Origin: Rhizophagus irregularis
Taxonomy: Eukaryota
Direction: 5' to 3'
NCBI RefSeq assembly: GCF_026210795.1
Contig: NC_089432.1
Span: forward strand, 2,480,001 to 2,544,000
DNA length: 64,000 nt
Below, one piece after another: positions 8,985 to 64,000 of this stretch. The notes under the pieces were generated by a model. It saw only the letters and a program-made list of their open reading frames with translations. It had not been told where the DNA came from and made no database searches. Position 1 is the stretch's first letter, and the number at the start of each line of letters is the position of its first letter. The position numbers and the translations under genes are program-made.

Positions 8985-11900
8985 GTTTGAAATTATTTTT
9001 TTTTTTTTTAAAAAAAAAGGTTATTTACTGCGGGAAAAAATTTAATTTTTAAATAAATGTTTAAAAAGAAAAAATTAATTTTTTTTTTTTTAGAAAAAAA
9101 AAATGAAAACTGCGTGTGTGCATATATATAATTCTTTGAACAAAAGCAATAAAAATAAATAAATAAATAAATAAATAAAAATACCGTATATCATGAACAA
9201 AAGCAAAAAATAAAAAAAATTTAATACTTTTATGGAAAAAAGTTTGTTGTACTGAAATTAGCCTGAAATAGATTTTAAGGCCGTGAAGATCTCGGCCCAA
9301 ATTATTTTAAAAAATGGGGTTGATCAAATGATCAACAATTTGCAAATTATACAAATTTTACAAAATTATACTTGAATAACCAAAAGATAATCATATATAT
9401 AAATTTTGATTAGTCCCCACTGGAGATTATGTAAACTTATTTTAGACGACAAAAAAAATTATAAAATAAAACAAATAATCTGAAAAAAAAAGTATTTTTA
9501 TCGAAAAGTTACTAAATTATTATTTATCATCATTTGACCAAATAATCATAAAAGTTTTTCATTTATGGTAAATATCAATCTTTGTTTCTCGAATGTTATT
9601 GTTTTTGCTTTTGAGAATTGTTTATTTACAAATATAGTAATATAAGTAAACAATTACTTTTGTTATTGTTTACATAAGTATAAAATGAAGAATGTATCAA
9701 AATATTACTAAATTTACTTGTATTTTAACAGGATTTACAAGTACAACATGACAAAGCAATCGTAATTCTATGAAATTCTGAAATTCTGTTTGTTTCGGTG
9801 ATCGTACAACATTATTTTGAAATTTCATATGAATAAATGTTTACTCCTGATACTCCAAATCGACCCAATGATTATATTTGTATATTGTTATTTTATAATC
9901 ATTCAGCAAATAGAATTAATATGTTGATCATTGTTACAAGATTCTTGCTTTTTCGGTAGTAGCCGTTATGCGGTTTTGTGGTGAAGCCCTCTTCAGTCAT
10001 ACGATGAAACATAAATAAATACATGGATGGTAATATACTAATACATAAATAAACTCAATAACGAAATCATTGTACATTATTTAAGCATATATTCTTGGAT
10101 AACTGCAATTTTTAATAAGTCGTTCTAGAAATATATTTAAAATAAGTAGCATTATCAAGTTTATTAAACTGGTCTAAGATACATAAGCATCGTTAACGTC
10201 TTTGTAACTGAAAGTTTAACTTTTTGCAAATCTTCATTTTTCTGACATTTATTAATTCTTGGTGGTTAAGATACGACACCGTATATACAGTACGTTCTTT
10301 TTTTTCCAGTAATGGTTGATGTATGAGATAGTGGATGTTTCTTTTGATAATTTCAGCGGTGTCAATCCCCGCTCGGGAGCCCCCTAAATGCGATAGCGCT
10401 GCGGATAATCGATGACTATTTTAGGTTTAAACAAAATGTTACAAAATCTATAAATAAGGCTTGCTTTCGGATTTTACCGTCTTCAATTTTAGTTTTCTGT
10501 CCAATAAAAATAATAAGCGAAATGCATGATACTGAAAACCGCACAAATTGGAAAAATGTTGAAAATTATTTAGCGTTAAATCTTTTTTTTAATTTAAACG
10601 TCATCGTAAATGTAAGGTAATTTTATTTATAGTGACTAGAATTTGCGTCTTGCAGAGGACTTCGTCCCTTAGCGTAATATTTTTATTATACGAATTAAAT
10701 ATATACAGTAGGTAATTCTAACCAATTTTCTTAATTTTGACTAATTTATTTAATTTAATTTATTAAATTAAATAAAAAAATGGCGACTTTGAATCATTAT
10801 ATCAAATTCCGACAAATCCGATTTGCGGATACGAATAAGAAAACTTTCAATTTTAATTAAAATTTTTATTTGGTTTTTTTTTAATAATAAACACATAATT
10901 TGGCTGGTAAGTCATTAATATTCACTGCGACTTTACAACACTATTATAAAAAATATACCGTGGGTAGTGTAGGTAGTATGAGTGGTGTTGTTGGTGATGA
11001 ATTCCTAATTAGGGATTCCCATAATTAGAATCGATTTTAATCGCGATTAATCGTTTCCAATCGATTGTGCACCATAAAATTTGTGGCAAAGCAATTCCAA
11101 TGATCACAAATTTAACATAAAAACTACTTGAAACCTCATTCTGTTTATTTTAGTGTTGGTTGCCGTAATAGTTATAACCGGTGCCGTAAAGTTTTATGTC
11201 GCAAAATGTATGTATCACGTGACTTATAGAATACTAAGCGATCGTCAAGAAGATTTCCTTTTTGGAAATCAGTGTAACGTCACGTGACATACGTGACATA
11301 ACGCGAAGTAGAATTTAGTAATTCGGGCTGGCATTATAGTTTCGTTTTTTATTCGATAATCAAGTAAAATCTATTCTGATTCGATTTTCGGTTAATTCGA
11401 TGAATTGATTCCAAATTATTCCCTCACTATTTAGTTAATTTAGTGTTAATTTCTTTACTGTGTAGATCTTCCAACAATTACGTTATACATTAGCTTATTT
11501 ATAAATAAACATTTTCACCACATATAAAAATATATTATTTAAAGTAAATACAGTATTAGACTTCAGCAAACTTTTTTGTTCTTTTAAAATAAACATGAGC
11601 CAATAACCAAACTCAATACGTACCGTTACTATTTTAAAAATTAAAAATGTTAATGATTCTAAATAACATAGAATAAGAAACATTTCCTGTAGCAGTAGTG
11701 GCTTTACTATGGCAGTTAGTGGAAATTTTATTTGTAGTAACTGGAAAGAGGGATATTGGGCGTCTTCACGAACCCCGTGATTGAGATTAGGATTGAGATT
11801 GGGATTAAAGATCAGCATGAGATTAGGATTAACGGATTACAATAAGAATCATTAAAAAAAATTTGAGAGTTTTAAGAAACTATCAAAAAAACTCGTTAAT

Positions 11901-22690: not shown

Positions 22691-23271
22691 AGATTTTACT
22701 TTAATAGATAAACTTTAAAAGAAAAGTTCAATTAAACAAAAGTGAAAATAGGAAAACCAGTGATTCTTATCTGCGTCTTTGAAATCATCTATATTTTCAA
22801 ATAAAATCTTATTTAATTTTATAAAATTATTTTAAAAAAATAATGTTTGTTTATTTTGCAAAAAATACATAAAATATAGCTTTCCAATTATACCGTAACA
22901 CTATAAAGCATTGGTATAAAAATGCAAGACTAATTCGTCCCATGCCAGTCTCTTTTATTTTAGACGTATAATGAATAAGCAATAGTTCCATACAGAAATA
23001 TTAGAAAAACATATTCTAAAAATGTGCGAGGTAGATGGCGACTGCAACAAGGAAATGACCTTAAACATACTAGTCGTGCTACTACTTTTATCATGAAAGG
23101 TCTCCATTTTTAACTCTTTTGCTAACATTTTTTTTGTCAAAAAATCTCCATCACTTATTTTTCAGACGTGAAAATCAGTAGTAAAAGTTCCCTAAATTAT
23201 ATAAATAATACATAAGAAATTCAATTTCTTTATTTAATTTTTAAAATAATAATATATTTAATATAAGAAAA

Positions 23272-24943
23272 TCAATTTCTTGGCTTAATTTCAACTAATA
23301 ATTCAGAAATTTTAATGCTATCATACGAAGTTTTAGTTTTAATAGGAGTACTCATATCTACTAAATTAATTTCATATTTCCTAAACAATAAAGCCATCAA
23401 ACAAACTAATTCTATCATTACCAACTTTCTTCCCGGACATAATCTTAATCCTCCACCAAACATGATAAAAGAATTCTTTTTTGGCTCAAAATTTTCAACC
23501 ATCCATCTATCAGGATTAAATTTATTAGGTTCTTCCCAATAATCATCATTATTATGAATGGCTTTAACATTAATTATAAACAATGTATCAGCTGGCCATT
23601 GATACCCTGCTATTTCATTGGGTTTATCAATATATCTTGTGAACGAGTGCATTATCGGGAAAACGCGAGCTACCTCTTTTACAATAGCTTCACAGTAACT
23701 TAAACTATAATAGTCATCTTTAGTGATTGATCGTTTTTTATTACCTTGAAATATACTATCAATTTCTTCTAGCATTTTCCTTTTCACATCCGGATTATGT
23801 ACAATATAATAGACAATTAATGAAAGCATATTCGAAGTCTGTATTTGAAATAAAAAAAAGGAATGATTAATATTATTTTAAGTTGAAATTATAAGCGTAA
23901 AATAAACCAAAATTTACTTTACAAGTTCCATTAAAAATTCCATCAAATAAATTAACGCGAATTTCAGAATCAGTCATAAATCTACTGGCTCCATCATTTC
24001 CAATATAATTAACATCACGAAATGTATTTTTGATAATCAACGTCGTCAACATATCATGCGGTAAGGGTTTATCCAATGGTGTATTTTCAATTCCACGCCT
24101 ACGTTTCTTAATGATTGCATCCAGTCTTTGATTAATAAATCCCATGTTTTGAAGTACATCATCTGATATATTTTTAAGAAACGGAACAAAATTTCGTAAG
24201 AAGGGAGGAATCAAGAAAAATATTGAATATCCCATAAGAACTTTACGAAGTGATTGGAATAATCTCACAGAATCTTCTACTATTATTGGTGGATAAAGAG
24301 ATTTTTCGTTACTGAGAGTATCAAAATAAGCTACCATTGAATAAGATTTTTCACCAGTTAACATTCTAATAATCATGTCATTTGTGTAATGATTAAACCA
24401 TTCAGGTAAATTCAATCTATTTTTATTTTCTTTAATAATTTCTCCTTTAAGAAATAACTTATTCCAATAATTTTCTAATTCATTGAAAAGTTTGTTTGTC
24501 CAACCAATAGCTTCATTAGTAAATTCCGGTGACAAAATAGCTTGATTAAAAACATGTCGATTAAATATCCACGATTTGAAATTATTATTAAACGTTATTC
24601 CTTTTCCTGCAATTCCCAATTCTTCTAATCCTTTGCTATTGTGAAATCTCATCTCATGCGTATTTTTTGACATAAAATCTTCAAGACATTCTGATCGACA
24701 TAAAACAATTGTTCGTTCCATACCGTTATAGATCTCATGTACGTCACCATATTTCTCGTAACAATAATCGTAAAACATTGAGCCATTTCCATTAAACCAC
24801 CAATAAATTTGAGGCAAGTTACCGATGAATGGTAATGGGAATGGACCGGGTAAAGGATTGACACGAGTAAAATACGTATAATAATAATGTGCCACAAATG
24901 TCACTAGCATTGTACTTAATAAAAAAATAAAGTCATTAATCAT
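23272..24943 (-). CDS. Cytochrome P450, 2 exons (24943-23918, 23838-23272)
   Basis: N-terminal TM anchor, PLPGPFPLP hinge, KEVAR (ExxR), PDRW, heme motif FGGGLRLCPG; GT-AG intron within the I-helix (NGTCK|TSNML). Confidence 0.95.
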
Positions 24944-26026: not shown

Positions 26027-27124
26027 GGGACCCCGAAATATATATAAAAAGGTAAGGTGGGCCTTCGAACTTTTTACTAATAGCTGTACGCAAGGGTTTT
26101 CTATAAGTTACTGGAAAAAATGCGCAAATTAATTTTCTAACCACCGATCATCATGTGATTTACCTATTGTTTTTGTTGATCAAACTTAACTGTTAACGCT
26201 TATCGAAGAATAATTTTTTTAAAAATTTTAATAACTTTATATATATTATATAAATGTATTTATTAAATGTACAAGCATTACACATTTTTTTGCATTAAGT
26301 AAAGTGCTACATATTTTTTGCACTAATAGTTATTTATATTTATTTTATTTATCTCAATGAAATATATATATAAAAAATATATATATTTATTTTTATTTAT
26401 CTCAATGAAATATATATATATAAAATATATACAGTATATATATGATCAGCCAAACTACTAAAATACGCAAAATAAACCCTTACTTAAACAATTTAATGGT
26501 CTGACCGTGGCAAAAAAATCCCCAGGTTGTACGTAAATCAATACCCAGAAATATATGTATAAGGGTCAGGTGGCGAAAATTTTTTTTACTATGAGCTGTA
26601 TGCAGAGACTTTTTATATATGGGTAGTACGCATAATTGACACCTGATATTGAAAATCCTGCAAATAAAATTTCAGACATTAAGTTATTAATTATTTTATC
26701 ATGACTTCTATATTATTTATAAAACCAAATACTAATGTGAAAAAAAATAGAATTTATTCTAATTTGCCATTTTTTCAGTAATATTTTCCAAAATTTTACT
26801 TTTTAATCCTTAGAAATTTCTTTCAATTAATACTAGCGGTTAACGTACAGTAAATATATAAGATTAGCCAAATTTAAGCCAAAAATACGCAAACTAATTT
26901 TTTACATATAAAATTTCGATAAAAAATACGTAATCTTGATGACCTAACTATGGATGAAAAATTCTTAGATTGTACGCAAATCAAAACTTTACTCTAATTT
27001 CACTATGATGGCGACGCATCTGTGTATCCTACCCCTGTATATATATTTCTGGGTCCCCATAAAATTTCTCTATGCTGGCGACGTAATTATGCACCTTACC
27101 CCTACATATATATTTCGGGGGGTC
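26027..27124. mobile_element. Degenerate inverted-repeat element (MITE-like)
   Basis: ccccgaaatatatataaaaaggtaaggtg (about 26031) is inverted at caccttacccctacatatatatttcgggg (about 27092-27120); related internal copies at about 26545-26600 and 27030-27058, and at 19360-19420. Confidence 0.5.
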
Positions 27125-27462
27125 TTCCTCTGACATTTTTTGTCGACAAACTTTTAATCAATTTTTATTTTATTTTATTACTAGAAGAGTAGTACTCCAA
27201 AACTATTACAAATAAAAGAAAGACAACATTTACATGTTCTACAACTAATATACGTGTATAGAATTTTGGACGTTAATCCCCTACAGGACCTCACCCTTCG
27301 GACTATCTATTCAAAAAGCTAGGACTACGCTAACCTTTCAAATGGGAAAAAAGAAAAATAAAAAGTGAAACCCGCCCATCCGAAAGATAAAGAGACCTAT
27401 AAAATAAAAGTAAATAAAATTTGTCCTAACTAAAATTGTCAATCTAAAAAGTAAAAATTAAA

Positions 27463-27530
27463 GATCCGTATTTTTCTTTCGGCCAAGGCCGCCACCTGTA
27501 AATACTGTAAGAGGTGGAATGGTTCACACT
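27463..27530 (-). ncRNA. Conserved structured RNA motif (predicted pseudoknot) in the element 3' UTR
   Basis: Near-identical block at 50123-50195; compensatory G-C to A-U change in the hairpin CGGC/GCCG versus CGAC/GUCG. Confidence 0.55.
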
Positions 27531-27649
27531 ATTTTAAGTTGTTTGTAAAAATCAATATATATAAATGAATAAATGTAAAAAAAAATGTAGATTTAACTAC
27601 TCGAAAAAGGGTAATTTGACTCTAACTAAAAAATTAAATATAAAATAAA

Positions 27650-29536
27650 CTATTTTGAATTTGACGGTCCCGCTTCTTCAGAGTCATAATCAATATATGG
27701 AGCAGGGCGGGAACGTTTCGATGGTGTATCTATAGGTGAGGAAAAAGATATCCTATTATCATTGATGTTGCGTTTGTAAGGACGGGATTCTAAGGCTGCG
27801 GTATCATCCGAGACAACCAGGGGTTTGTATGAAGGGACGAAAATAGTAGTTTCTCGTCTAATTTTGTAATCTTTAAGAAATTTCTTCAGGTCTCGTTCGA
27901 GAAATTTAGTTGATCGACCCGTGTCGATACGCTCCTTTCTTTTTGTTAAATAATTGGGGATATATTTGTGGAATTCGTCTGTTGAGTACATTAAGAAATC
28001 AACTTGTGATTTACGAGCGTCCAGGTACTTGACACTAGTACCAAGGTGTATCGCCTATTGTTTGCGTTCCTCTATTTCTTTTGTTCTCCTTTCTTGGTTT
28101 TCTATGCGTGATCTCTCAAATGCTTGTGTTACTTCTCGATGTACACGTTCATTAAATTCTTGTTCAGCTTGTTCATCGATAGATTTTTCCAGATTATACA
28201 TATATGTGAACCATTCACGAGAACCTGGAGTAATAAAGCAATTGTTAACGTAAATGGGGTCTTTGGGTATAATATCACGGTATTTTTTAGGAATAAACAT
28301 GTTAGGAATAGGGTTGAACGGTTCGGTAACATCAGGAGGTTTTGGTGTGATTTTAGATGGTGTAGGTGGGTTTAAATGTTTCGATAAGGTGTTGATATTC
28401 TTCCAAGTTTTATTTTCATTGGGGTGTCGTTTAGCGTAAAATGGAACCAAAAATGGATAGTCCTCAGGATTCGGTTCGATAAAACTTTTCTTATATACTA
28501 AATGTCGAATGGGGAATTTAATGTACTGATTTTTTAAGAATATAAACTTGTGTTTTCTAGCTGTTGCTAATATAGCTTGGTGATCGTCTCCTATAGCTTT
28601 ACCAAGAACGTGCCGACAAGCACGAGTAAATCTTTTTTCTTGTTTTTGTTGAGTACAGAGATTAGGACTAAAAATCCGTTGAAAGTTGGAAAAGACTTTT
28701 CTGTACATATGTTTACTGCCCAATTTAAGGATTGAATTAGCATCCCGAGCGTGGATTGAGCTGATGTAAGAAACGCCCGTTCTTTTGGAGTAATGATGTT
28801 TAGGCTGACTAGAAAGCCATCTGTGATATAAAAGGTTAGCATGAGAAGATTTATTGTTAATAAAATCTTCATTTGTTTGTTTTTTAAGTATATTATTTTT
28901 TGGTTTGATATTCTTGTAAAAATGGTGTTTAGCTAAATTTTGTTGATGATTGATGCAAGCACATCGATCATGTGACATAATAAAAGGACTAGGGATTCGA
29001 CATAAGGGAGGTGTATAGGGGTTATCAGAATTGTTTTTGAATGAACAAGGGATATAAATTCCAAAATAAAAACGATATCTTTTGTAACTAAAATTAAAAA
29101 AAGTTTTCGTCATCGTGTTCTTTTTTGCCATCAAAGAAGCACGTGATTCAATAATTTTTCTTCTATCCAATAATTTGTTGCGAATTAAATTGAAATATTT
29201 TTGTTGTACACGACGGGGTATAACTCTTTGTAAAGAAAAAAAATGTGTGAGCATGCAACTAATTTGGTATTTGTCATTCGGGAATGAACTCGTGTTACTA
29301 TAACTAATAGGTTTAGTGTTCATCTGATAATCATTTGTGTATATTTTTAAATGAATATTATTGGTGTTCGGGGAACGATCAGCGAGCTCAAAAAAGAAAC
29401 TCCTAGATCGGCGTATTTCATATATCTTGTTAAAACCTGATCGATTTGGTTTGATCACGTGAAATTTTTTCAGGGACACCTGTAGGGGAGTTTTCGATAA
29501 AATTTTTTCCGAAGGAAAAATTTTTTCGGAAGACAT
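27650..29536 (-). CDS. Basic hypothetical protein (~628 codons) of the putative retroelement, interrupted by one in-frame TAG at 28055-28057
   Basis: The 493-aa and 113-aa ORFs are in frame: EERKQ*AIHLGTSVKYLDARKSQVDFLMYSTD; Cys/His cluster C..C..CAC.NH; C-terminal KRSRP; no RT, APE, RNase H or DDE motif recognised. Confidence 0.75.
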
Positions 29537-30460
29537 ATGTATAGTGTATAATATTTATTATAATAAAGGATAGTAAAAATGTATGTAAACGTGAAAATAA
29601 ATGGTATATTTAAGCGACAGTAGGAATAAAGAAAAAACTCTACTATAACTGCAAGGTTGAATATTACGTAAGGGGGTATATATGACGTTGTCTATTGACT
29701 GTATAATTCTATTAAAAGTAAAACTTTTACCATATGTATATACTAAAAGATATGGAGTGACTTGAGAATATTCGCGAGTTGTTGTAAGATAAAGAAAAGT
29801 ATTAGCAAGCGAAAAAAAAGTGTAAAAAAAACGTCTATTTTGTAATAATAAAAATATTTTACTGCGCCATTTTAGTAAAAATTGGGTTTATCGGAAAGAG
29901 TTTTTTTTTTCTCAAAACTTTTAATCAAATAAGGGATTAATTTTGAAACAATATAGTCCAGTGAGATCACGTGAACAAAATACGGCTAATAGGACAAACA
30001 CAAACTAATTTAGATTTATTTAAGCAAGGAGGACCTTCCAATAACAAACAAGATAAATTAGCGGAAATATTGAATTTTGTTATTGACAATGATGTAGTTT
30101 TTAGTTGATTTTTAGTTGTTTTTTTATATTTTTTTTTCTTTTTTTCCTTTCGTAGGTTTTTTTTTTCATCTAGGTTTTCTCACGGCAGGAACTTGCAGCT
30201 TCGTAGTCAGGTTCAGTGTTTTTTCTAGGTATTTAGTTTTGTTTGTGTAGGACATTTTATATGCCTGGTTACTGTGGGTCGATGGGCAGTTGTTTATGCG
30301 GCTTTATATAGTCACTTAGATATACTGTACATATGGGTGTTTTTATTACACTTGGTATCTCTGATTATATACTTATCACATGAGTTCCATCGCTGTAGGA
30401 CATGAACTAGTTTAGAATGTGGATTATGAAATTGTAATATACTTTATATGATTGATATTA

Positions 30461-30892
30461 TAGTCATAGCTCGATATAACGATTCGAGATAAACCGATTT
30501 TGGCCCACAGCGAACTTTTTTCTTAAACAAAAACCATCTATAATTAATTTATCACTATATACCGACCTTATTATAAATTTCGCGATATTATATATAGCGA
30601 AGTTAATCATAAATCCATATTTATTTATTCGCGATATCTATGACTATGAGTCTCAATTTCGGTACAAATTTCTGTATGATAACATTGTATTGATAGTATA
30701 AACATATTCTAAACTCTAAAGTGATATAAAAATATGATTTTATAATATATTTTTTTAGATATACCGAATTTACTATACATACTTTTTAATATATAAATCG
30801 GTATAATAAAAATATTTGATTTATCGAATATTCGTTATAACGACCCAAAATCGGCTGAACAGAGGAGGGTTCGTTATATCGAGTTCTGACTA
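30461..30892. mobile_element. pogo/Tc1-mariner-type MITE (TA TSD)
   Basis: TA|tagtcatagctcgatataacga ... tcgttatatcgagttctgacta|TA (2 mismatches); a solo end TA|cagtcggaactcgatataacga lies at 33735 and a related end near 17985. Confidence 0.8.
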
Positions 30893-31580
30893 TAATAACA
30901 TGATTATAACGAGTAACGGAGTTAGTTCAAATATATTATAACAGATTAGTTCGGAATTTTCTTTTTTTTAAAAAAAATAATTACTTTTTATTGTTTATAA
31001 CAAATAGAATTAATAAATTGGTAAATATAGTTAATTTTTTCGTAAATAATCAACTAAATGATAAGATTCATTTGAGTTACAATACATTAACACAGAGAAA
31101 TTTCGTGTAATTCTTGGTAAAATTTTTCAGTGAATAATTTTCCGAAAAATTAAATTTTCGTATTAACTAATGATGTCATATTTCTAGAAAATAGTTAATT
31201 GCAACTATTGGACGTTACACTTGACTTGGCAGTGTGACTTATATAGTAATATCGAAATTCCATTCGTGAAACAGAAATAACGGAATATCGGATAAATATC
31301 GGCAATAATAAAAAATTAAGCTTGATCGACATTTTAATTTACTTAAACGTCAATTCATCATCTAAGCAGTATTAAAAAGTTACGTTAACGTTTGTTTCTT
31401 GGCAATGACTTTTTTTTCTTATAAATAAATCCACTAAAAAAATGTCTCGATTTTTTCAGAGCAATTTTAAAATACATTTAAAATACATTAGAAAAATTAA
31501 ACAATTTTAAATATCATAACAATTCTTCTTTATCTACATTTCTTTTTTTTAATTTTATACAAATAATAATTTCATTGAGA

Positions 31581-37385: not shown

Positions 37386-37743
37386 CTTGACTGCACACCG
37401 CGCTGACCAGACGGCTTTAAAGGTTTTGAAAGTGGAGATTTGTATTCACTTTTGATATGTTTAGCGTTAATGGTTTTTTACTTTATTATGAACTTTCTAA
37501 AGAATCACAACCATTACGTGAGAGCTCGAAATGGGCCGCGTTTGGTTGAGTTTATTTTTACTTTTTTTTGTTCATAGTCTGTGTAGGTCAGAACCGGTGA
37601 TATGGCATGTTTAGTGTTAATTGTTTTTTACTTTGTTATGAACTATCTAAAGAATCACAACCATTACGTGAGAGCTCGAAATGGGCCGCGTTTGGTTGAG
37701 TTTATTTTTTACTTTTTTGTTCATAGTCTGTGTAGGTCAGAAC

Positions 37744-40216
37744 TAGAGATGTGCCATGCGCATTATGTGTTGCTATTATGCATTGCGCATAATGCGCATT
37801 ATGCGCATGATAAATTTTGTAATAAATTATAAGTTGTAATTCTGGTAAACTTTACACCCTAACTCCGGCCAAAATTATAAATTAACAAAAATGGAATTTA
37901 TAATAAATTTGTATTACATTAGATCTTTCACAAAAAAAAAATTTTTTTCTTCGTTCAATCAGTTCAAAAATGCCTCCAACTAGCCCTATTTGGGCTCACT
38001 TTAATAAACTTGGACATGTGGCTGGTTTTCGGCAAGCCCGTGCACAATGCAAATACTGTAATCATGAACTAAATGCTGCTGCTAACAAATGTATTGCACA
38101 TTTAAAAACCTGTTCAAGTGCAAGTATAACAGTTCTCCAAGGATTTTTTGGGCCAGATTTTAAACTTAGTGCAAAACAACGTATTAATTCCCATTTACCA
38201 ACAGAGCAAAATAATATTGTTACTATTAAGAAACAACCGCAAAAATCAATAAATAATTTTGTTGACAAAATAACTTCAGCAGAACAAAATGAAGCTGAAC
38301 TATTATTTGCACAAGCAGTTTACCGATGTGGATTATTCTTATCATTATCTGAACTAGAACCAATTAAAATTCTTTTTCAAAAACTTCGTCCTTGTTTTTA
38401 ATTGCCCTCACGAAAAGCTTTATCAACAACATTACTTGACACGGTATATGAGGATACAAAAGATGAAATAAATAATTTGATTAAATCAACTGATTATATT
38501 TGTTTGATTTCTGATGGATGGTAGGTGATATATTTTTTTTAACTATTATTTATATATTCATTATAAATATCTTGTATAAATATTTTTAGGTCAAATATGT
38601 TGCAAGAACATTGGACAAATTATTTAATTACCACGCCAAGACCAGTATTTTTCTCTGCTCATCAAACTGGTGAAATCAAACAAACAGGAGAAAATATTGC
38701 AGCCGACATTGATAAAGTTATATCACAGATTGATCATTCCAAACTTTCAGCAATTATTACTGATAACGCATCTTCAATGAAGAAAGCATGGAAACTTTTG
38801 GCTATTAAATATCCAAACATAGTTTTCCTTGGCTGTGTAGCTCATTCCTTAAATCTTCTAATTGGTGATATTATGAAACTCCCTTGGGCGGATAGTACTA
38901 TAAAAAATGGAAAGAAAATCGTTAAATATTTCAAATCACATCAAATTCCAGCTGCAGTTCTGAAACGATATCAAAGATCCAGTTATGATAAGCAAATTTC
39001 ACTTAAATTACCTGTAAAAACACGTTGGGGATCATCAGCTATTTGCCTTAATTCACTTCAAGTAAATCAGCTTGCTATTGAATTAACGGTAACAGAATTA
39101 TCACGTAATCAAACTGTTAGAATTGATGATGATATGAGAAGTATTGTATTAAATGATGGGTTTTGGAAAGATGTTGATAATTTACTCAAAGTTCTCAACG
39201 AACTTGTTATTGGAATTTCTATGTTTGAATCGGATACACCTTTTTTATCTAAAGTATTAGATTGGTATTACAATCAATTAGAATCATCAGGTAAAATATC
39301 ATTTTTTTCTTTGGTAAATATAATCTAAATTATTACTAATCAAATTTAATTTCTCAAGTTTATTTTTTTGATATAAACGGAAATAATACGAGTATTAAAA
39401 ATATTATCAAAAAAAGGTGGGAAAGTATTTACCACCCTGTTATGGAAGTTGCGCATCTGCTTGATCCATCATTCCATGGTTGCCATCTTACTTCTAATTC
39501 AATGGATAGAATTTCGCAGTTTATCCAAAAATATTATTCGGATAATGCAGTAATTATTTGGACACAAATCTTGAATTATAGGAGAAAAACTGGAGTTTTT
39601 GCGAATAAACTTGCTTGGGAAACTTCTGATAATGTTGATCCTATAACTTGGTGGAGTGGAAATTTTAGTGATTCTGCACCTGAACTTACTCAAGTAGCAA
39701 AAAAGGTTTTATCTATTCCAACATCATCTGCTGCGTCTGAAAGAAATTGGTCAGCATTTGCATACATTCATGATAAAAAACGAAACCGGTTGAGAGCTGA
39801 TCGTGTCTTTAAATTAGTGTATATTTATAGCAATTATAGATTACAAATGCCACGAGAAACGCCAGAATGGAAAGGGTTTACAAACGGGTTTGATAAAAAT
39901 ACTTCGTTAGACGGGGGAGTTGTAGATGACGAAATTCAAAGTTCAGGCGAAAATGAAGAAAGTGATTATGATGAAGATGTAAATAGTAGTAGTGAAAACG
40001 AAGAGAGTTTTAATGATAATGAAGCTGATGACTCTGATGTATCTTGTTAATAATTCAGTAAAATAAATAATAAAAAATTTTATTTTTTTGTAAAGAAATC
40101 GTATTTTTTTTTTCTGTATAACAGTACTATGTGTATCATGTGCATGATGCGCATGATGCGCATCATGCGCATCATGCGCGTGATAAAATGAAATTTCCGC
40201 ATTTTGCCCATCCCTA
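37744..40216 (+). mobile_element. Full-length hAT DNA transposon
   Basis: 8-bp TSD GTCAGAAC (37736-37743 and 40217-40224); TIRs TAGAGATGTGC / GCCCATCCCTA; subterminal ATGCGCAT repeats at both ends; internal transposase. Confidence 0.97.
37970..40050 (+). pseudogene. hAT transposase (BED finger, DDE, C-terminal dimerisation domain), 3 exons, one nonsense codon
   Basis: WAHF..CKYC..HLKTC; SDGW spanning intron 38521-38589; TDNAS; CVAH; TRWGS; SAASERNWS; second intron 39291-39358; in-frame TAA at 38399-38401 (RPCF*LPSRK). Confidence 0.92.
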
Positions 40217-40679
40217 GTCAGAACCGGTGATCTGGTATGTTTAGTGTTAATTGTTTTTTACTTTACTATGAACTATCTAAAGAATCACAACCATTACGTG
40301 AGAGCTCGAAATGGGCCGCGTTTGGTTGAGTTTATTTTTTACTTTTTTGTTCATAGTCGGTGTAGGTCAGAACCGGTGATCTGCCGTGCTGATTAAGAAA
40401 TTTGTATTCACTTTTGGTATGTTTAGTGTTAATGGTTTTTTACTTTATTATGAACTATCTAAAGAATCACAACCATTACGTGAGAGCTCGAAATGGGCCG
40501 CGTTTGGTTGAGTTTATTTTTAATTTTTTTTGTTCATAGCCAGAGAACTAGTGATATGGTATGTTTAGTGTTAATGGTTTGTACTTTGTTATGAACTATC
40601 TAAAGAATCACAACCATTACGTGAGAGCTCAAAATGGGCCGCGTTTGGTTGAGTTTATTTTTTACTTTTTTGTTCATAG

Positions 40680-41620
40680 TCGGTGTAGGTCAGAACTGGA
40701 AGTTACATGCTTGGAGGAAGATGATGAAAAGCGTGGGTTGTACGAACATAACACCTTATAAAAAGCAAAAATTGAAGGTAAGTTTTTTTTGGTTTATACT
40801 AAAATTAAAAATTGAATCAGATTTTTACTAAAAAAAAAACTTACTTTTATTATAGCCTGAATTTTGGACGTACGTGGTAAATTCCAGTAGCGAATTCTAT
40901 TATAACGGAAAAGTTTGGATTTAGAGAAATACAAAAAAATTGCAAGTAAGTTTGAATATGATGTCGTTTGTTATTTCATAATTGAAATAAACTTACTACA
41001 AACGTTTAATTAGTGCCTCAACGAAATAGTCGCATAATGGTCCAGGATGTCCTGCAAAAATCAAACCGGTTGTAACCCGAAATTTTATCTCTGAAATAAA
41101 AGATAGAGAATTGAATTCTCTGATAAAGAATATGTCATGATGAGCTCTTATGGTGTTGATCCGAAAATAACCTACTGTTACTATATCTAAAAGATAAAGA
41201 AACTCTTTGGCAAAAATTTGAGGATATCCTGATGGAATAAAGAGGACCTCTTTTATGGCACTTTTGGAAAGTGGTCAATATGTGTATTGAAAAGATTTGG
41301 GTGGGCTATGTAATTTTTGCAGTGTATATTGTTATGGAGTGTTTAATACGTTAATTAGTTTGGTACAATTACATGTAGAAAAGGAATCACGGGTATACAA
41401 TAAGAATATTACATAACAAAATTTTGTTTGAATTTATTATTTATAAAAAATTTGAAATAAAAAAATTGGAAATAAATATTATTTTCTAATTTTTATTTTT
41501 TTTTAAAAATAAACTTAAGAATTAAAAATAAACTTAAGAATTCACTAATAAATGAACTTGAAAAATTACGCCATCATCTAAAATGAGGTTTCGAAAATGA
41601 GCTTATTATAAATGACTATA
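40680..41620 (+). pseudogene. Degenerate multi-exon gene or transposon remnant of unknown function
   Basis: GT-AG-bounded blocks translating to fragments such as GPGCPAK, YLKDKETLWQKF, YPDGIKRTSFMALL and DLGGLCNFCSVYCYGVF, with stops and frameshifts. Confidence 0.5.
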
Positions 41621-41994: not shown

Positions 41995-44900
41995 GGTGCA
42001 GTAAAGAGTTAGGCGTAGCTAATAAATTGTCGGGCTAATTCACATGTCGGAAAAATTGCATTTCGGTGAAATAGCTGTCTGTAAATTGTACGTAACCAAT
42101 GTTTTCAGCCTGGGCAACAGAAATGATTTGTTATTTTAATATATAATTAATAAAATAATATTACTAAATTAAGGAGTATGGTATCGATTATGCAAGTATC
42201 GACAAAAGATTTGTAAAATAGTAATCCCTATATAGTAATCGCGGATATTGATGTCGCATGATGAACGAAGGGGATGCCGATGAAATAAAAGGATCACGTG
42301 AAGATACCACGTTTCACTGCATAATGCAACGTTATGGCCCATCATAAAGACGTTTGCCACCACAAGCTACAAAAATATTCCTTTATTAAATAAAATAAAA
42401 TATTAATATATCCCGAGTTTCATAATAAAATAAAAGAATAAAATGAATAATTTCAATATAAATCTAATTCTAAGACTATTTCTACTAATTATAAATCCTT
42501 AAATCAAATTGCGATAATTTCCCCTTATTAGTAATTCTTAATAAGCCATTAATTAAAATAATTAATGTGGCACTTTTTCATCCAAAAAGAATCGAACAGT
42601 GAAAGTATGATGTGAAAATTTTTAATTCGAAAATCTCCCTAATGTAAAGGATTTTAAGGTATATTTATATCTTTTTATGTTACACTAACATTCTAAATAG
42701 CGTCCCCATAGAAATTATTAAAATTTGTATAATAAATTAATTTCAACATAAAAAAATTTATATCATTGAAAATATTCCTTACTTTCTTATTAATACTGTA
42801 AAATGAATCAAAGGTCATGTCTGCAAAATGGCTTGTCAGCAAGATAGGAATTCGTTAAAATGGTTTCGAAAAAATGTGATATCGATAAAATGCCAAGTAG
42901 GCAACCCTATAAAAAAAATTCTGAAAAAAACTCCGATAAATAATCATTTTTCTAGTTCTCAAACATGTGATCATTTTTCTGAAAAATTAAATTTTTCATA
43001 GGGGCAAAATGACGTAAATTTTATGTCGGTGAAACAGGTGTCGGCAAAATGGGTGAATACGGAAAACATCATATTATTTATTTACCAACATGAGGTTCAC
43101 GATCTTTTAGACTATTAAAATATTTTTAATAATTTTTTGCATATTTATAAATTGAAATCATTTTTTTCACAATAATTTTCAAACTTTTAAAAAACATGAC
43201 CTCTTGATCCAGTTATAAAAAAATTGTGTAACATAATACATTACGTGCCAGCTGTGATATATAAAATATTAAATTTATTTAGAGATGATATATTAGAAAA
43301 TCAATTTCTTAATTCAATTTTAACTAATAATTTGACACAAGAAATTACAATATCATCACTTTTAGTTTTAATAGGAGAATTCATATCTACTAAATTAATT
43401 TCATATTTTCTAAACAGTAAAGCCATCAAACAAACTAATTCAATCATTGCTAATTTTCTTCCTGGACATAATCTTAATCCTTCACCAAACATGATAAAAG
43501 AATTTTTCTTTGGCTCGAAATTTTCATCCATCCATCTATCAGGATTAAATTTATTAGGTTCTTCCCAATAATCATCTTTATTATGAATAACTCCAACGTT
43601 AATTATAAAGAATGTTCCAGCTGGCCATTGATATCCTGCTATTTCGCTAGGTTTATCAATATATCTTGTATTCAAGTGCACAATTGGGAAAATGCGAACT
43701 GCTTCTTTTACAATTGCTTCACAGTATTTTAAACTGTAAAAATCATCTTTAGTAATTGGTCGCATTTTACCTTGGAATATACTATCAATTTCTTCTAGCA
43801 TTTTCTTTTTCACATTTGGATTATGTGCAATATGATAGATAATGAATGAAAGCATATTAACAATCTATATTTGAAATGAAAATAAAGGAATTGTTAATAC
43901 AACTTCGAGCTAAAGCATATTGCATTTATGATGAGAAGATCTAAAAATTTACTTTACTAGTTCCATTGGAGATTCCATCAAATAAATTGACGCGAATTTC
44001 ACTATCAGTCATAGACCTATTGCCTTCATCGGTTTCGATATAATTACCATCACGAAATGTATTTTTGATAATCATCGATGTCAACATATCATGAGGTAAG
44101 GGTTCATTCAGTGATGTATCTTCAATTTCTTTTCTACGTTTCTTAATAATTGTATCCAGTTTCTGATTGGCAAAACCTATGTTTTGAAGTATATCATTTG
44201 CTATATTTTTAAAAAACGGAACATAATGTCGAAGAAAGGGGGGAACTATGAAAAAAAAAAAATATCCTATATGAATTTTGTGAATTGATTGAAATAATTT
44301 CTCAGAATCTTCGACTCTCGCTGACTGATTATCAAATTTTTCATCACTAATAGTATTAAAATAAGCTGCCATTGAATAAGATCTTTTACCAGTTAACATT
44401 TTATTAATCATGTCAGTTGTGTAATGACTAAACCATTCAATTAAATCCAATTTAATTTTATTTTCTTTACTAATTTTTTCTTTAAGAAGTAACTTGTCCC
44501 AATAACTTTCTAATTCACTGAAAAGTTCGTTTGTCCAATCAATAACTTCATTAGTAAATTTTGGTGATAATATAGCTTGATTAAAAAAATGATGATTAAA
44601 TATCCACGACTTATAATTATTATTGTATACTATTTCTTTTCCTTCAAGTCCCAATTCTTTTAATCCTTCGTAATTTGGACATCTCATCCAATACATATTT
44701 TTTGATAAAAAAATTTCAAGATATTCTGCTCGACATAAAACTATACATCGATAAAAATTGTTAGTCTCATATATGTCACCATATTTCTTGTAACAATATT
44801 TATAAAACTTTGGAATATCCCCTTTAAACCAAACAGCATAAGGAAAAGTGCCAATGATTGGGAATGGGAAGGGGCCAGGTAACGGATTGACACGAGTAAA

Positions 44901-45043
44901 ATATTTGTAATAATAATATGCCACATATATCATTAATACTGTACTTAAAAGTGACAAAGCATTAATTTCGAAATTCTCGAGTGGATTAAAAATCATCTTA
45001 TCGAACAGCTGCTTCAGCTCCCTTAACTTAATTTTTTTTCTGG

Positions 45044-45076
<33 letters not shown>

Positions 45077-45471
45077 TTTTTAAAAAAAATAATTTACATA
45101 TACGATTATCGCTCGACATTTAAATCAACTTTCACATTTTATTTAAGATGATCGTCAATTATACAATGAAAAAATGCATGTTGAATATTACCATTTCGTT
45201 TAACTATATATGGTAAATTTTTGTCAAATGGGATTTTTTTTCATCAACAAATGATCAATTCTTTGCAGAAGTAAATAAAGGTTACAGTACAATTTATAGA
45301 CAGCTATTCACCAGCATGAAATTAATCGGCGCCATTTTGCTGATTTGCATTTACTGACATGAAAATTTACCTATTCGATTTCACCGAAATGTCATTTTAC
45401 CGACTTGTAAAATTATCCGACTTGCCATTTCGCCAAAAATTTATTGGTTGCGCCTCACTCCTTATTGCGCC
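41995..45471. repeat. Pair of long imperfect inverted repeats (41995-42098 and 45280-45471) enclosing the second P450
   Basis: ggtgcagtaaagagttaggcgtagctaataaatt...catttcggtgaaatagctgtctgtaaattgtac matches the reverse complement of the 45280-45471 block, with indels. Confidence 0.65.
43301..44996 (-). CDS. Cytochrome P450, 2 exons (44996-43953, 43864-43301), paralog of 23272-24943
   Basis: PLPGPFPFP, KEAVR, PDRW, FGEGLRLCPG; same intron position (NGTSK|IVNML). Confidence 0.95.
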
Positions 45472-49876: not shown

Positions 49877-50764
49877 TTTATTTATTTCTATTTTATTTTT
49901 ACTTAGAAGTCGTGAATACATCGTTTAGTTACAGATTCGTTATGACTACAAGGCACATTATGAGTACACAGCTAAACTAGACAAAATCCAACGGGCGGAC
50001 CCACCCTTCGTTAGAACGAACTGACTAATGGAAACATAGTCGCTATAGCAGTAAACGAACAAAGGAATTAGAAGTTAAAGTAAAAATAAAGGGAAGTGTA
50101 CCGAGCAATTAAATAAAAAAATGATCCGTATTTTTCTTTCGACCTTTTGGGTCGTCACCTGTAAAATACTGTCATAGGTGGAGTGGTTCACACTATTCAA
50201 AATTGTTTGTGTTTGTAATAAAATGAATACATTGATGTATACTAATATTTAAAATGCTACACGTCAAAAGGGGATATAGACTCATTACTAAGTTAAAGCA
50301 GTAGATAAAAGAAATAAAATTAATACATGGTATCTATAAGTCCTACTACTGGGGAGTCCTTAGGGGAACCAGTTGAAGGACGTGATCTTTTCATCGGATT
50401 TGAGGAGTTATTGGAAGTAGATGTGCCGGTGTGTGAGGAGACGTTTGTTTGTTCGGATTTCGAGGTTTTTCTTATCGTTCGACGTCGCTGGATCTATTGT
50501 GGAACGGGGTCGTGGATTGTAATATTCTAGATCAAGTTTATCGAACTCGTCTTGTAATTTTTCGGATCTGTTAATACGTTGATCGGTTTTGCGTTTGGCT
50601 AAAAACTTAGTCACTATCCGGTGATACTTGTTTTGATGATTAGTTAGAAACTTTGTTTGATCAAGTCTCTCCGGAAGTTTGTGCATGCTCGTGCCGTGGA
50701 ATTGAGCATCACGGACGCGAGCGGATTTTACGAAGAAAGCCCAAAGTGCTATACAAATTGTATA
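49877..50764 (-). mobile_element. 5'-truncated, diverged copy of the 27162-29914 element
   Basis: Peptides FHGTSMHKL..FL..KRK..RS, TSNDKKNLEIRTNKR and KRSRP align with HLGTSVKYL..FL..KRK..RS, VSDDTAALESRPYKR and KRSRP; same 3' UTR motifs and A-rich tail. Confidence 0.8.
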
Positions 50765-52001
50765 AAACTATAAAAATCATCTTTAGTAATTGGTCGTATT
50801 TTACCTTGGAATATACTATCAATTTCTTCTAGCATTTTCTTTTTCACATTTGGATTATATGCAATATAATAGATAATGAATGAAAGCATATTTGCAGCCT
50901 AGATTTGAAATAAAAAAAAAAGGAATTGTTAATATAATATCAAGCTAAATCATATTGCATTTATGATTAGAAGAGTGTGAAATAAAATGAAATTCCTCTA
51001 AAAATTTATTTTGTGCATTCCATTAGAAATTCTATCAAGTAAATTGACGCGAATTTCACTATCAGTCATGGATCTATTGGCTTCATCGGTTTCGATATAA
51101 TTACCATCACGAAGTGTATTTTTGATAATCATCGATGTCAACATATCATGAGATAAGGGTTCGTTCAATGGTGTATCTTCAATTTCTTTTCTACGTGTTT
51201 TGAAGTATATCATTTGCTATATTTTTAAAAAATGGAACGTAAGATCGTAAAAAAGAGGGAATTATGAAAAAGAATAAATATCCTATATGAATTTTATGAA
51301 TTGATCGAAATAATTTCTCAGAATCTTCGACTCTCGCTGACTGATGATCAAATTTTTCATCACTAATAGTATTAAAATAAGCTGTCATTGAATAAGATCT
51401 TTTACCAGTTAACATTTTATTAACCATGTCAATTGTGTAATGACTAAACCATTCCATAAAATCCAATTTAATTTATTTTCTTTACTAATTTTTTCCAATA
51501 ACTTTCTAATTCATTTAAAAGTACGTTTGTCTAATAAATAACTTCACTAGTAAATTTTGGTGACAAAATAGCTTGATAAAAAAATGATGATTAAATATCC
51601 ACGACTTATAATTATTATTGCACGTTATTCCTTTTCCCTCGAGTCCCAATTCTTTTAATCCTTTGAAATTTGGACATCTCATCCCATGCGTTCTTTTCGA
51701 TAAAAAAATTTCAAGATATTCTGCTCGACATAAAACTATACATCGATGTAAATTATTAGTCTTATATATATCACAATATTTCTCGTAACAATAATAATTA
51801 TGAAACATTGAGATATTTCCTCTAAACCGAATAGTATAAAGAAAAGTACCAAATAATGGAAATGGGAAAGGGCCAGGTAAAGGATTAACACGAGTGAAAT
51901 ATTTGTAATAATAAAATGCTACATATATCATTAATACTGTACTTAACAGTTAAAAGTGACAAAGCATTAATTTCAAAATTCTTAAGTGGATTAAAAATCA
52001 T
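50765..52001 (-). pseudogene. Cytochrome P450 pseudogene (recent duplicate of 43301-44996), truncated before ExxR and the heme motif
   Basis: High nucleotide similarity to the second P450 including upstream DNA; several frameshifting indels; donor GT mutated to AT near 51008; homology stops after KDDFYS at about 50765. Confidence 0.92.
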
Positions 52002-52919
52002 CTTATCGAGCAACTACTCCAACGCCTTTAAATTAATAATAATTTTTCTGGGTTATATATATATATATATAAATTTTTAAATTTGAAAATTGCTGAAGAG
52101 AAAAGATGGAAGATGATTTCCAAATTGTGTAAAAGGTACATCCCAAAACATATTGACACATAATTATAAAATAAATTTTTACTTATATTATCGAGTTATT
52201 CAACTTAATAACTAACAATTTATTATTTTCATAGATAGGATGGCTTTCTCATGTGTGACATGTGCGACGATAAATAAGAAAGTAAAGATAAACGGAATTA
52301 ACGTTAAGTTTTCATAAGGAATCCATATACAGTATATGATTATCACTCGAAATTTAAATCAAAATTACGTCATTCTAAATTTGATTTAAGATGTGTGATC
52401 GTCAATTATACAATGAGGAAATGTATGATATACTTCCAATTAGTTCTAATTGAATATCACAAGTTCATTTAACTGCATATGGTAAATTTTGTTAAATGAG
52501 AATCCCTTTTTTTCTTTGATTGATTGATAGACTGGTTAAGCTTTACCGTATATCATTTTCCCTGAAGTCAATTTTCCGATTTGCCATTTCCCGAACTGGC
52601 TCATTCCCTAAACTCCAATATCCCGAATGAAAATTTTACTAGATTTAATAAATGACGTATAACAATTCTTTTTTTAAAATAGATTTTATTTATATTTAAT
52701 AAATCATAATGACAAAAAAAAATAATAATCCTTTAATTTTAGGTTTCTTTTTAACTACCCGCTCCATTTTCTCCATTTCGATTACAAAATTTAAAATAAA
52801 ATAGCATTAAATAGTCAAAGTTTTAAATAAAATATAAAAATATATAATAATAATAATAATAATATAATATTTTTTTATGTAAGAACCTAAATAGAAAAAA
52901 ATAAATAATTTTTTAATTG

Positions 52920-62358: not shown

Positions 62359-62847
62359 TTCGAAAAAAAAACGAAAAAAAAATTTTTCTTTTTTTTCTTT
62401 CTTTTTTTTTTTTAAAGGAATAAAACTTTTTTTAAAAAAATCATATCAGATATATAAATAGGCATAAAAAACATTCTAAATGAAAGTATATAAATAGTTA
62501 CAATTCTTTTTAAAAAAAAATGATGTGCGACTGATGTACTACTAAATATACCTATAAAACAATGGTTACATTTCCTAATCCTGCATATTTATTTGTTTTT
62601 TCTATTACGCATCTAATACGCATCTTATGTATCACATGCGCCCCTTTGTTGGGTTCCTTCTATAATTGGACAATGAAAAAGGATGTTTTCGGACATCATT
62701 TACCGTAAATATTTATAAGTTAACAAAGTTTTATGGAAATGTGAAGGATCTGCTCCGTCATTTACCAAAACTTTTAAGAAAGTGTTTTGTAAAAAACTGG
62801 CATATTTTAACTCTTTGTACCCAGGCTTTGTTGAAATTACTTTTGAT

Positions 62848-64000
62848 ATGAACAATATGGCGACGCCAACGCCCCCTATCTCACAACGTACTCGTTCAGG
62901 AACGGCCAAAAACTTGGTCCAAGATAAAAATGACGGTGACCATGAAGTTTTTTCAAAAAAAAAGGAACCTGACAATATTGTTACTCCTCTGCAGACTAAT
63001 ATAAATGAACCGCTAGAACCTAAAGAGGCTTCTAGCAGACGCGAACTTCGTAAAAAGAAACAACAAGTTAGTTTTAATACCAACAAACAAGTTTTACAAA
63101 ATACGTCTTCGCCAGTATTCTTGGTCTCTTCGCCCGAAAAAGTCAGTACAAACACAGTGGGCCAATCAACGGACCAAAATCTAGACGTAAACAATGATGC
63201 ATCTAACAAACAAACATCTAGTTCTGCTATTGGTCAAACTTCTGTCGATCATAACAACATCACATCAAATGACCAAATCGTAAATGATCAGCAAGTTATC
63301 TTACCCGATATAGAAATGATCATGGATGAGCAAGAGGACGACACTAATCAATTCCATAAATTAGAAAATAGTAAAATCATTGCCATACTTAAAGTGCCAA
63401 TCAACAACCCTGATAATATTGATGAATATAAAAAATTTATGAAGATCGTACAAAATAGTATTCTCGAGGATTCTATGCTTAAACAAGAAGATATTATTAG
63501 TCTTCAAGTTCAAATTATGACACAGAAAGTTCCAGAAGGCACAGTTGCACAAATGAATGATAACCAGAAAAAAGTTAATAAGATTATTACAGGAATTTCT
63601 TTACAAGCAACATTAATCTCTCAACAAACATGGAAAGATTTACAAGAAACGCCTTATCGATGTGATGGTATAGATTATTTTTTTGAAGAGGTTATAACAA
63701 ATCGTACACGACAAAAACAAAATAATGGAAATTCACAAGATAGGGTCGTACAAGTGTTTAATGCGTCACTTCGTTTGACTACTGCTATAATTAAACCCTT
63801 TATGCGTAAATATGGAGAATTAGAAGAAGAGAAATGTTATTCTCGAAGGCCTCATGCACATGCACCAAATCGTCAAGTAGTTTATATTACCTTTAAAGAT
63901 GCTAATAGTGTTCATCGATTTTACGATAATCACGTGCTTTGGATCTATGGCGAAATGTTATATGTTACTCCATTTTTAATGGATAAAAATATTAGAGAGG
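62848..64000 (+). CDS. Long intronless ORF running off the window; probable ORF1 (gag-like, RRM-like) of a non-LTR retrotransposon
   Basis: Open from ATG 62848 to the end (MNNMATPTPPISQRTRSG...); low-complexity N-terminus followed by VQVFNASL...FMRKYGEL...VVYITFKD, an RRM-like pattern; absent from the ORF track because it has no stop. Confidence 0.65.
   Translation, partial: MNNMATPTPPISQRTRSGTAKNLVQDKNDGDHEVFSKKKEPDNIVTPLQTNINEPLEPKEASSRRELRKKKQQVSFNTNKQVLQNTSSPVFLVSSPEKVSTNTVGQSTDQNLDVNNDASNKQTSSSAIGQTSVDHNNITSNDQIVNDQQVILPDIEMIMDEQEDDTNQFHKLENSKIIAILKVPINNPDNIDEYKKFMKIVQNSILEDSMLKQEDIISLQVQIMTQKVPEGTVAQMNDNQKKVNKIITGISLQATLISQQTWKDLQETPYRCDGIDYFFEEVITNRTRQKQNNGNSQDRVVQVFNASLRLTTAIIKPFMRKYGELEEEKCYSRRPHAHAPNRQVVYITFKDANSVHRFYDNHVLWIYGEMLYVTPFLMDKNIRE

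What the first reader, a model, noticed from the sequence alone, without database searches (positions are those of the whole stretch)
27148..29928. Protein-coding, RT-less retro-mobilised element with 14-bp TSD and (TAAAA)n tail
Seen: an exact 14-bp direct repeat (AAACTTTTAATCAA) brackets 2753 bp holding a ~380-nt leader, one intronless ~628-codon Lys/Arg-rich ORF with a Cys/His cluster, a ~490-nt 3' UTR and a TAAAA-repeat tail next to the repeat. A second, very diverged, 5'-truncated family member lies about 20 kb away. Known: a long TSD, A-rich tail and 5' truncation are hallmarks of target-primed reverse transcription by LINE machinery. Inference: this is a non-autonomous retroelement family (neither SINE nor LINE) encoding its own non-RT protein, perhaps an RNA-binding or packaging factor, and mobilised in trans. 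I do not recognise the protein family.
Basis: partly seen in the sequence, partly recalled or inferred. Interest (0 to 1): 0.88.

Follow-up and report, generated by a model that had tools for sequence, protein, structure and literature searches.

The report
RT-less retroelement with twin RNA pseudoknots
In root-symbiotic fungi, a family of 2-3 kb elements carries one gene for a protein with no recognised fold and no reverse transcriptase, flanked in several members by two copies of an undescribed predicted RNA pseudoknot, and its insertion scars show that it is likely a jumping gene that borrows the copying enzyme of another, still unidentified, retrotransposon.

Summary
Real, and richer than reported. 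The exact 14-bp repeat, (TAAAA)n tail and intronless ORF are there, but this copy's ORF has a stop at codon 494. The protein is Pfam DUF8211, a large family of Rhizophagus/Glomus; no RT-fused form was found, and a confident model (pLDDT 92) matches no known fold. A distant relative, pieced from two overlapping soil contigs, has the same head motif, a (TAAA)n tail and its own 19-bp target-site duplication, so variable-length TSDs mark at least two unrelated insertions. Contigs from three probable RNA runs cover the element unspliced and almost exactly end to end. New: a three-stem RNA pseudoknot (14 of 17 pairs with compensatory changes, no Rfam match) lies in the 3' UTR of all four copies whose 3' UTR was seen, and again in the 5' leader of three. 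Best reading: a protein-coding non-autonomous non-LTR retroelement that works like HAL1 or TRE5-A.2, but with a protein unrelated to known ORF1s. The helper RT, an empty site and the protein's function were not shown. The scan's earlier notes held no match to this element.

The parts
29915..29928 (.). Target-site duplication, copy at the element's 5' end (14 bp)
   Evidence: exact match to 27148-27161; only two copies in the window
29892..29914 (-). Conserved head: TGAG, A-run, CTCTTTCCG; element 5' end
   Evidence: pattern AAAAAACTYTTTCCG found exactly once in the window and in L001 and L004, 2 of 6 loci; in L004 it starts 4 nt after the TSD
29859..29866 (-). CGCAGTAA motif in the leader, likely a host-type promoter or initiation element
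   Evidence: 5 copies in the window against 0.79 expected; also in the leaders of L001 and L002
29701..29755 (-). 5' leader copy of the predicted three-stem RNA pseudoknot
   Evidence: found by a model trained only on 3' copies, E 0.001; descriptor hit; covariation
27650..29536 (-). DUF8211 ORF, 628 codons, intronless, with a premature TAG at 28055-28057; basic N-terminal core (aa 15-375) with a CCCH motif, then coiled coil and disordered tail
27468..27517 (-). 3' UTR copy of the predicted three-stem RNA pseudoknot
   Evidence: no Rfam match
27162..27179 (-). (TAAAA)n tail
27148..27161 (.). Target-site duplication, copy at the tail (14 bp)
49880..50765 (-). Second, diverged family member: about the last 100 codons, 3' pseudoknot (50128-50181) and A-rich tail; no TSD found

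Best explanation
This is one copy of a family of non-autonomous non-LTR retroelements of mycorrhizal fungi that carry a single DUF8211 gene and no reverse transcriptase, and that are likely inserted by target-primed reverse transcription using the enzyme of another, unidentified retrotransposon. Shown: TSDs of 14 and 19 bp at two unrelated sites, a conserved head, a tandem-repeat tail, a conserved protein under purifying selection, whole-element contigs, and a covarying pseudoknot in the 3' UTR and often also in the leader. Inferred: the element is transcribed from an internal promoter as one unspliced RNA; the basic, CCCH-motif DUF8211 protein binds that RNA in cis, most likely at the pseudoknots, as an ORF1-like chaperone (about 45% for this step alone); the RNP recruits a host LINE-type RT/endonuclease that primes at an A-ending nick and copies from the tail. 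This copy's truncated protein keeps the whole conserved core, but the copy may be dead.
For: TSD 14 bp here. TSD 19 bp shared by L004:407-425 and L006:1334-1352, two contigs overlapping at 447 of 452 nt; longest shared word in 20,000 random pairs was 14. Head motif in the window, L001 and L004. L001, 42% identical in protein, has head, one long open frame and the 3' motif in the same order with no RT. X2 holds one gap-free contig of 2754 nt, 27140-29893, with no differences; X11 covers 27165-29858 and X8 27152-29868, with no depth at 29913-29990 and none over 30324-31500 for X8. X16, on record as poly(A) RNA-seq, has four near-identical contigs inside the ORF. Other contigs in the same runs join the 3' motif to the N-terminal coding region 1.5-1.9 kb away, and one in X22 also reaches the head. 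104 homologs, 19 of them named from one strain; 636 clusters at 50% identity; none longer than 828 aa among the 228 held; none in the 'longer' searches. dN/dS 0.14-0.31 in 6 of 6 pairs. Pseudoknot: 14 of 17 pairs change on both sides in 6 sequences, 0 of 500 shuffles as high, slid controls at most 4 pairs.
Against: No whole genome was held, so the helper RT, copy number and empty site could not be examined; no joint across the element appeared in the listed rows, which are cut. The 19-bp TSD comes from two different samples, not one contig. The head motif is missing in 4 of 6 loci, including L002, which has 531 nt upstream of its open frame. The leader pseudoknot was not found in L001, L002 or L005. 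Most runs are RNA only by the tool's guess and no spliced control gene was laid. dS is near saturation. The two 'longer' searches are weak evidence and would not see a LINE that carries DUF8211 as a separate ORF1. Both sites lack the T-rich primer end typical of L1 (recalled), so the helper is not pinned down.
Confidence: 0.8

Rival explanations
1. HAL1-type derivative: DUF8211 is the ORF1 of an autonomous Glomeromycota LINE, and these elements are its ORF2-deleted offspring. The mechanism is the same; only the origin is ordinary.
For: Precedents exist: HAL1 encodes only ORF1p (PMC5753468, passage) and TRE5-A.2 has the structure AB-ORF1-BC and is mobilised in trans (PMC3159450, passages). The protein is basic, has a Zn-finger-like motif and a coiled coil, as ORF1 proteins often do.
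Against: No similarity to the LINE ORF1-like protein in this window (probability 0.08%), no CCHC knuckle in 0 of 232 proteins, no fold match to any solved structure. In L001 and in the longer run contigs the ORF is followed directly by the 3' motif. The family is very diverse (636 clusters), which points to a long independent history.
Confidence: 0.2
2. A host gene family that spreads as processed retrocopies: an ordinary mRNA with structured UTRs is occasionally copied by a LINE, and the protein serves the fungus.
For: Host-like promoter motif in the leader, expression of several members, purifying selection.
Against: Tails are (TAAAA)n or (TAAA)n repeats and not plain poly(A); TSD-bounded copies start at the same head in distant lineages; many database members are fragments; L004/L006 and this copy are broken.
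Confidence: 0.1
3. Endogenised copies of an RNA replicon (satellite or virus-like RNA) whose paired pseudoknots are replication or packaging signals and whose protein is a coat or nucleocapsid protein, pasted into DNA by a host RT.
For: Same RNA fold near both ends, one basic protein of no recognised fold, high diversity.
Against: No relative in IMG/VR by protein or motif, no match among predicted viral structures; expressed RNA is identical to this genomic copy, stop codon included.
Confidence: 0.07

Closest known systems
HAL1 (half-L1) of mammals
   Same: Non-autonomous non-LTR element that encodes one non-RT protein (PMC5753468, passage); TSD and A-rich tail.
   Different: HAL1 derives from L1 and encodes L1 ORF1p. 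DUF8211 shows no sequence or fold match to a known ORF1, no parent LINE was found, and the element carries an undescribed pseudoknot in both UTRs.
TRE5-A.2 of Dictyostelium discoideum
   Same: ORF1-only element mobilised in trans; a structured 3' module is essential (PMC3159450, passages).
   Different: TRE5-A.2 is a deletion of a known autonomous partner and targets tRNA genes. Here no partner is known, and only 1 of 2 TSD-defined sites lies near a tRNA-like gene.
Pfam DUF8211 (PF26638)
   Same: 102 of 104 homologs carry this label.
   Different: It is catalogued as a domain of unknown function in hypothetical proteins; the term occurs in 0 papers of the library. The local Pfam copy gave no hit, so the label comes from the precomputed annotation of homologs.
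Hammerhead, HDV-like and other ribozymes of retroelements
   Same: A small structured RNA in the UTRs of a retroelement, in more than one copy.
   Different: No CUGAnGA or conserved GAAA block (against PMC10085705, passages); no room for the HDV P3/L3 stem and no C in the linker position (recalled consensus); no Rfam hit.

Membership tests
Non-autonomous non-LTR retroelement (TPRT-mobilised) | Variable-length target-site duplications at unrelated sites | tested here: met
   14 bp in the window; 19 bp of different sequence in L004/L006. 2 of 2 copies with both ends visible; the truncated second window copy has none.
Non-autonomous non-LTR retroelement (TPRT-mobilised) | A-rich or tandem-repeat 3' tail next to the TSD | tested here: met
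   (TAAAA)n here, (TAAA)5 in L006, A-rich tail in the second window copy.
Non-autonomous non-LTR retroelement (TPRT-mobilised) | No RT or endonuclease of its own | tested here: met
   One ORF between the TSDs; no Pfam, PDB or fold match to RT or nuclease; no GD[FWL]N motif in 0 of 232 proteins, YxDD-like strings in 11 of 232, not at a conserved column of the folded core.
Non-autonomous non-LTR retroelement (TPRT-mobilised) | Element-length RNA | tested here: inconclusive
   Contigs match the element end to end in three runs that are RNA by guess or of unknown kind, and in part in one run recorded as poly(A) RNA-seq; contigs cannot prove ends or strand.
Non-autonomous non-LTR retroelement (TPRT-mobilised) | Empty site in a relative / insertion polymorphism | not testable with these tools
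   No fungal genome is held; no joint across the element among the listed rows.
Non-autonomous non-LTR retroelement (TPRT-mobilised) | 3' end shared with an autonomous partner | tested here: inconclusive
   A deep 282-nt contig in X22 shares only the last 135 nt and then differs; what it belongs to cannot be read.
HAL1 / ORF1-only LINE derivatives | Protein homologous to ORF1 of an autonomous LINE | tested here: inconclusive
   No match to the one LINE ORF1-like protein in the window or to solved structures; other fungal ORF1s could not be compared.
Penelope-like elements | RT plus GIY-YIG endonuclease, pseudo-LTRs with hammerheads (recalled) | tested here: not met
   No RT; a conserved GIY tripeptide exists but no YIG follows it; no terminal repeat beyond the 14-mer; no hammerhead core.
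Hammerhead ribozyme (any permutation) | CUGAnGA and GAAA blocks | tested here: not met
   Neither is conserved in the six aligned copies (definition from PMC10085705, passages).

The most novel reading that the evidence does not exclude
A self-standing class of protein-coding retro-parasites, not descended from any LINE: a protein of a new fold recognises a new pseudoknot present at both ends of its own RNA (or that pseudoknot is a new self-cleaving or exonuclease-blocking RNA) and uses it to capture a host reverse transcriptase, and the family has diversified into hundreds of lineages that are now annotated as orphan genes of mycorrhizal fungi.
Probability: 0.35. Interest if true: 0.88.

Novelty: new variant of a known kind. 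Interest (0 to 1): 0.74.

Why it matters
It gives an identity to a large family of 'hypothetical' genes (DUF8211) in a fungus where two-thirds of transposable elements are reported unclassified (PMC11075540, abstract passage), and curation there kept new families only if a transposition domain was present (same paper, passage), which would miss this element. It also offers two testable novelties: a confidently modelled protein core with no fold match, and a strongly covarying RNA pseudoknot absent from Rfam that recurs in both UTRs. Together they make it possible to ask how a non-autonomous element can use its own protein and RNA signal to hijack a foreign reverse transcriptase.

Tried and rejected
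Whole-genome search: none held. Local Pfam: no family for either ORF piece. RT-fused forms: 0 of 3697 and 0 of 2684 long candidates scored. Viral contigs: 0 of 77 pattern stretches were relatives, motif pattern 0. Prokaryote genomes: 0 of 62; 8 hits of a 20-nt motif pattern were chance, none matched the RNA model. Fold searches: full-length model against PDB, no match; core model against PDB and viral libraries, none at E 0.001 or better; VIA best Z 3.5 over 90 residues, rmsd 5.1, none at Z 5 among 48,161 chains; the two sub-domains were not folded apart, so absence of a match does not prove a new fold. PDB sequences: one designed helix bundle at E 6.8. ESM Atlas: no usable hit; a second look-up could not be answered. 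Internal repeat in the protein: none by profile comparison. GIY-YIG nuclease: rejected, no YIG. The CGCAGTAA match after the second copy's tail is not a head-to-tail junction: the motif is common in the window. The last 169 nt fold no better than shuffles (z -0.33), and single copies of the pseudoknot are not unusually stable (z 0.09, 0.32, -0.92); support comes from covariation only. One RNA-model hit on the minus strand inside L006's coding region (E 0.003) is taken as false. Depth in X22 (thousands on the tail and motif) was not used as copy number. Missing cover of the element body in X21, X22 and X23 was not used as evidence. Literature: DUF8211 in 0 papers; searches listed no description of this element or motif (titles and abstract starts seen); passages read in PMC11075540, PMC8647823, PMC11952901 and PMC5640933 held none; their supplementary TE libraries were not seen and may hold a consensus under 'unknown', SINE or LINE. 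The HAL1 origin paper (PMC2923044) is not held.

Full report
Observation. The 14-mer AAACTTTTAATCAA occurs only at 27148-27161 and 29915-29928. Between the copies lie, on the minus strand, a 378-nt leader, a 628-codon frame (29536-27650) and a 488-nt 3' UTR that ends in (TAAAA)3.4. The frame has a TAG at codon 494, so this copy makes at most a 493-residue protein. In this window 29 of 20,000 random zone pairs share so long a word; the repeat here also falls exactly on both ends defined below. The surrounding genes (Sel1-repeat kinases, P450s, F-box-like proteins, by my reading of the translations) and the names of homologs place the window in a Rhizophagus-type fungus. No whole genome was available.

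The protein. A search with the frame read through with X gave 104 relatives; 102 of them carry Pfam PF26638 (DUF8211); all named ones are Rhizophagus, 19 from one strain's gene set. Glomus cerebriforme adds members (3 of 10 proteins looked up). A profile found 636 clusters at 50% identity. Nothing scored among longer proteins, in viral contigs or in prokaryote genomes. The core (aa 15-375) has pI 10.3, with Cys, Cys, Cys and His conserved in 96-99% of aligned sequences, and folds with mean pLDDT 92 and pTM 0.75 from 147 sequences. It matched nothing by Foldseek and reached only Z 3.5 by VIA. The C-terminal part is predicted as long helices and a disordered tail. Pairwise dN/dS among four genomic copies is 0.14-0.31 (dS near saturation), so the protein has been under selection.

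Other copies. Six metagenome loci were fetched. L001 (42% identical) shows the same plan: head motif at 123, one long open frame, then the 3' UTR motif; the contig ends before the tail. L004 and L006 overlap at 447 of 452 nt and together give a decayed element of about 2.2 kb. Directly before its head (L004:407-425) and directly after its (TAAA)5 tail (L006:1334-1352) stands the same 19-mer; random pairs of such zones gave at most 14 in 20,000 trials. So two unrelated insertions have TSDs of different length and sequence, both starting within 4-5 nt of the conserved head. The head is absent from the other four loci; L006 lacks that region, L003 and L005 may begin inside the leader, and L002 should show it but does not. 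The second window copy keeps about 100 codons, the motif and a tail, but joins a truncated P450 copy without a TSD.

RNA. Fifteen of 24 listed runs hold 97-99% of the element's sampled words. Seven different runs were laid in two calls. X2 has one contig of 2754 nt at 27140-29893 without a difference or gap, X11 covers 27165-29858, X8 covers 27152-29868, and the flanks are mostly without depth. X16, recorded as poly(A) RNA-seq, has four near-identical contigs in the ORF. X21, X22 and X23 do not cover this copy's body. The unit that is assembled thus matches the TSD-bounded unit, unspliced and with the stop codon. X2 and X8 are RNA only by guess, X11 is of unknown kind, and I laid no spliced control. 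Other contigs in these runs link the 3' motif to the N-terminal coding region 1.5-1.9 kb away, and one in X22 goes on to the head region; depth stops before 29913 in all four runs.

The pseudoknot. The 3' UTRs share about 70 conserved nt. They fold as a 6-bp stem whose loop pairs with a downstream strand, with a 5-bp hairpin between. A model built from three 3' copies found, unprompted, the L006 3' copy (E 3e-9) and a copy in this element's own leader at 29755-29701 (E 0.001). Later models added leader copies in L003 (E 0.04) and L004 (E 0.04; its crossing strand pairs over 5 bp). L003 holds part of a further copy 334 nt upstream. No leader copy was found in L001, L002 or L005. On a structure-blind alignment of six copies 95% of cells pair, 14 of 17 pairs change on both sides (3 of 6 in the crossing helix), and 0 of 500 shuffles reach this. 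A descriptor, written after five copies had been seen, hit 6 places in 74 kb, all in elements, and none in 12 simulated windows. Rfam has no match. It lacks the hammerhead blocks. Contigs run through both copies, so complete self-cleavage in vivo is unlikely, though partial cleavage is open.

Mechanism. Shown: boundaries, TSDs, tail, protein conservation, RNA fold by covariation. Inferred: transcription from an internal promoter (the leader holds a motif that is over-represented in the window); binding of the basic CCCH protein to its own RNA at the paired pseudoknots, the leader copy suited to translational feedback and the 3' copy to RNP assembly; reverse transcription from the tail by a helper. 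At both TSD-defined sites the priming strand would end in A-rich letters, with 1-2 nt of match to the tail repeat, unlike the T-rich priming of L1 (recalled), so another clade is more likely. R. irregularis has CR1-Zenon, L1-Tx1, R1, R2-Hero, RTE-BovB and I families (PMC11075540, passage); unchecked notes of this scan describe LINEs with 15-17-bp duplications in the same genome. I could not test any of them.

Comparison and verdict. It works like HAL1 (PMC5753468, passage) and TRE5-A.2 (PMC3159450, passages): one non-RT protein, mobilised in trans. It is not filed as a member, because kinship of DUF8211 to a LINE ORF1 was not found and could not be excluded without a genome. An unchecked note of this scan reports an ORF1-only element in mushrooms with an RNA-binding gene, so the strategy is not unique in fungi. 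The term DUF8211 is in no paper of the library and six further searches listed no description of the element; supplementary TE libraries were not seen. Verdict: a new variant of a known kind, confidence 0.8, interest 0.74, with about a one-in-three chance that it is a separate class.

Noticed in passing
window 37435-40700: A hAT-like transposase (DUF659, E 5e-19; hAT dimerisation domain, E 6e-17) lies between about 310-bp repeats in direct orientation, 92% identical (37435-37747 and 40397-40700), which is unusual for a hAT element.
   Followed up: no
window 26027-27125: Left flank is a roughly 1.1-kb repeat with nested inverted arms (26027-26059 against 27030-27057 and 27092-27120), deep in run X22; the element inserted about 25 bp outside its end.
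   Followed up: no
window 29929-30450: Right flank looks like the decayed end of a coding frame plus the 3' UTR of another element on the plus strand; no match elsewhere in the window.
   Followed up: partly
window 30444-30909: MITE-like element with 39-nt inverted arms; X22 has a contig identical over 30453-30928.
   Followed up: no
window 62719-64000: Open frame of at least 427 codons that resembles a LINE ORF1 by eye, running off the window; no Pfam hit above threshold, unrelated to DUF8211.
   Followed up: partly
window 23261-24919, 43290-45077, 50765-52084: Three P450 paralogues; the third is broken and cut where the second DUF8211 copy begins.
   Followed up: partly
L004:222-302: A tRNA-like gene on the opposite strand ends about 105 nt upstream of the 19-bp TSD; the window has no tRNA gene.
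   Followed up: partly
L003:1-57 and 335-391: Tandem duplication with 334-nt spacing in the leader that repeats the pseudoknot.
   Followed up: partly
window 27163-27298: A 282-nt contig at very high depth in X22 (and a like one in X8) shares only the last 135 nt of the element and then differs: a possible short partner element or helper LINE tip.
   Followed up: partly
window 9025, 21721, 25406, 29859, 49855: CGCAGTAA is over-represented (5 against 0.79 expected) and lies just upstream of genes at 9020 and 49433; a possible promoter element of this fungus.
   Followed up: partly
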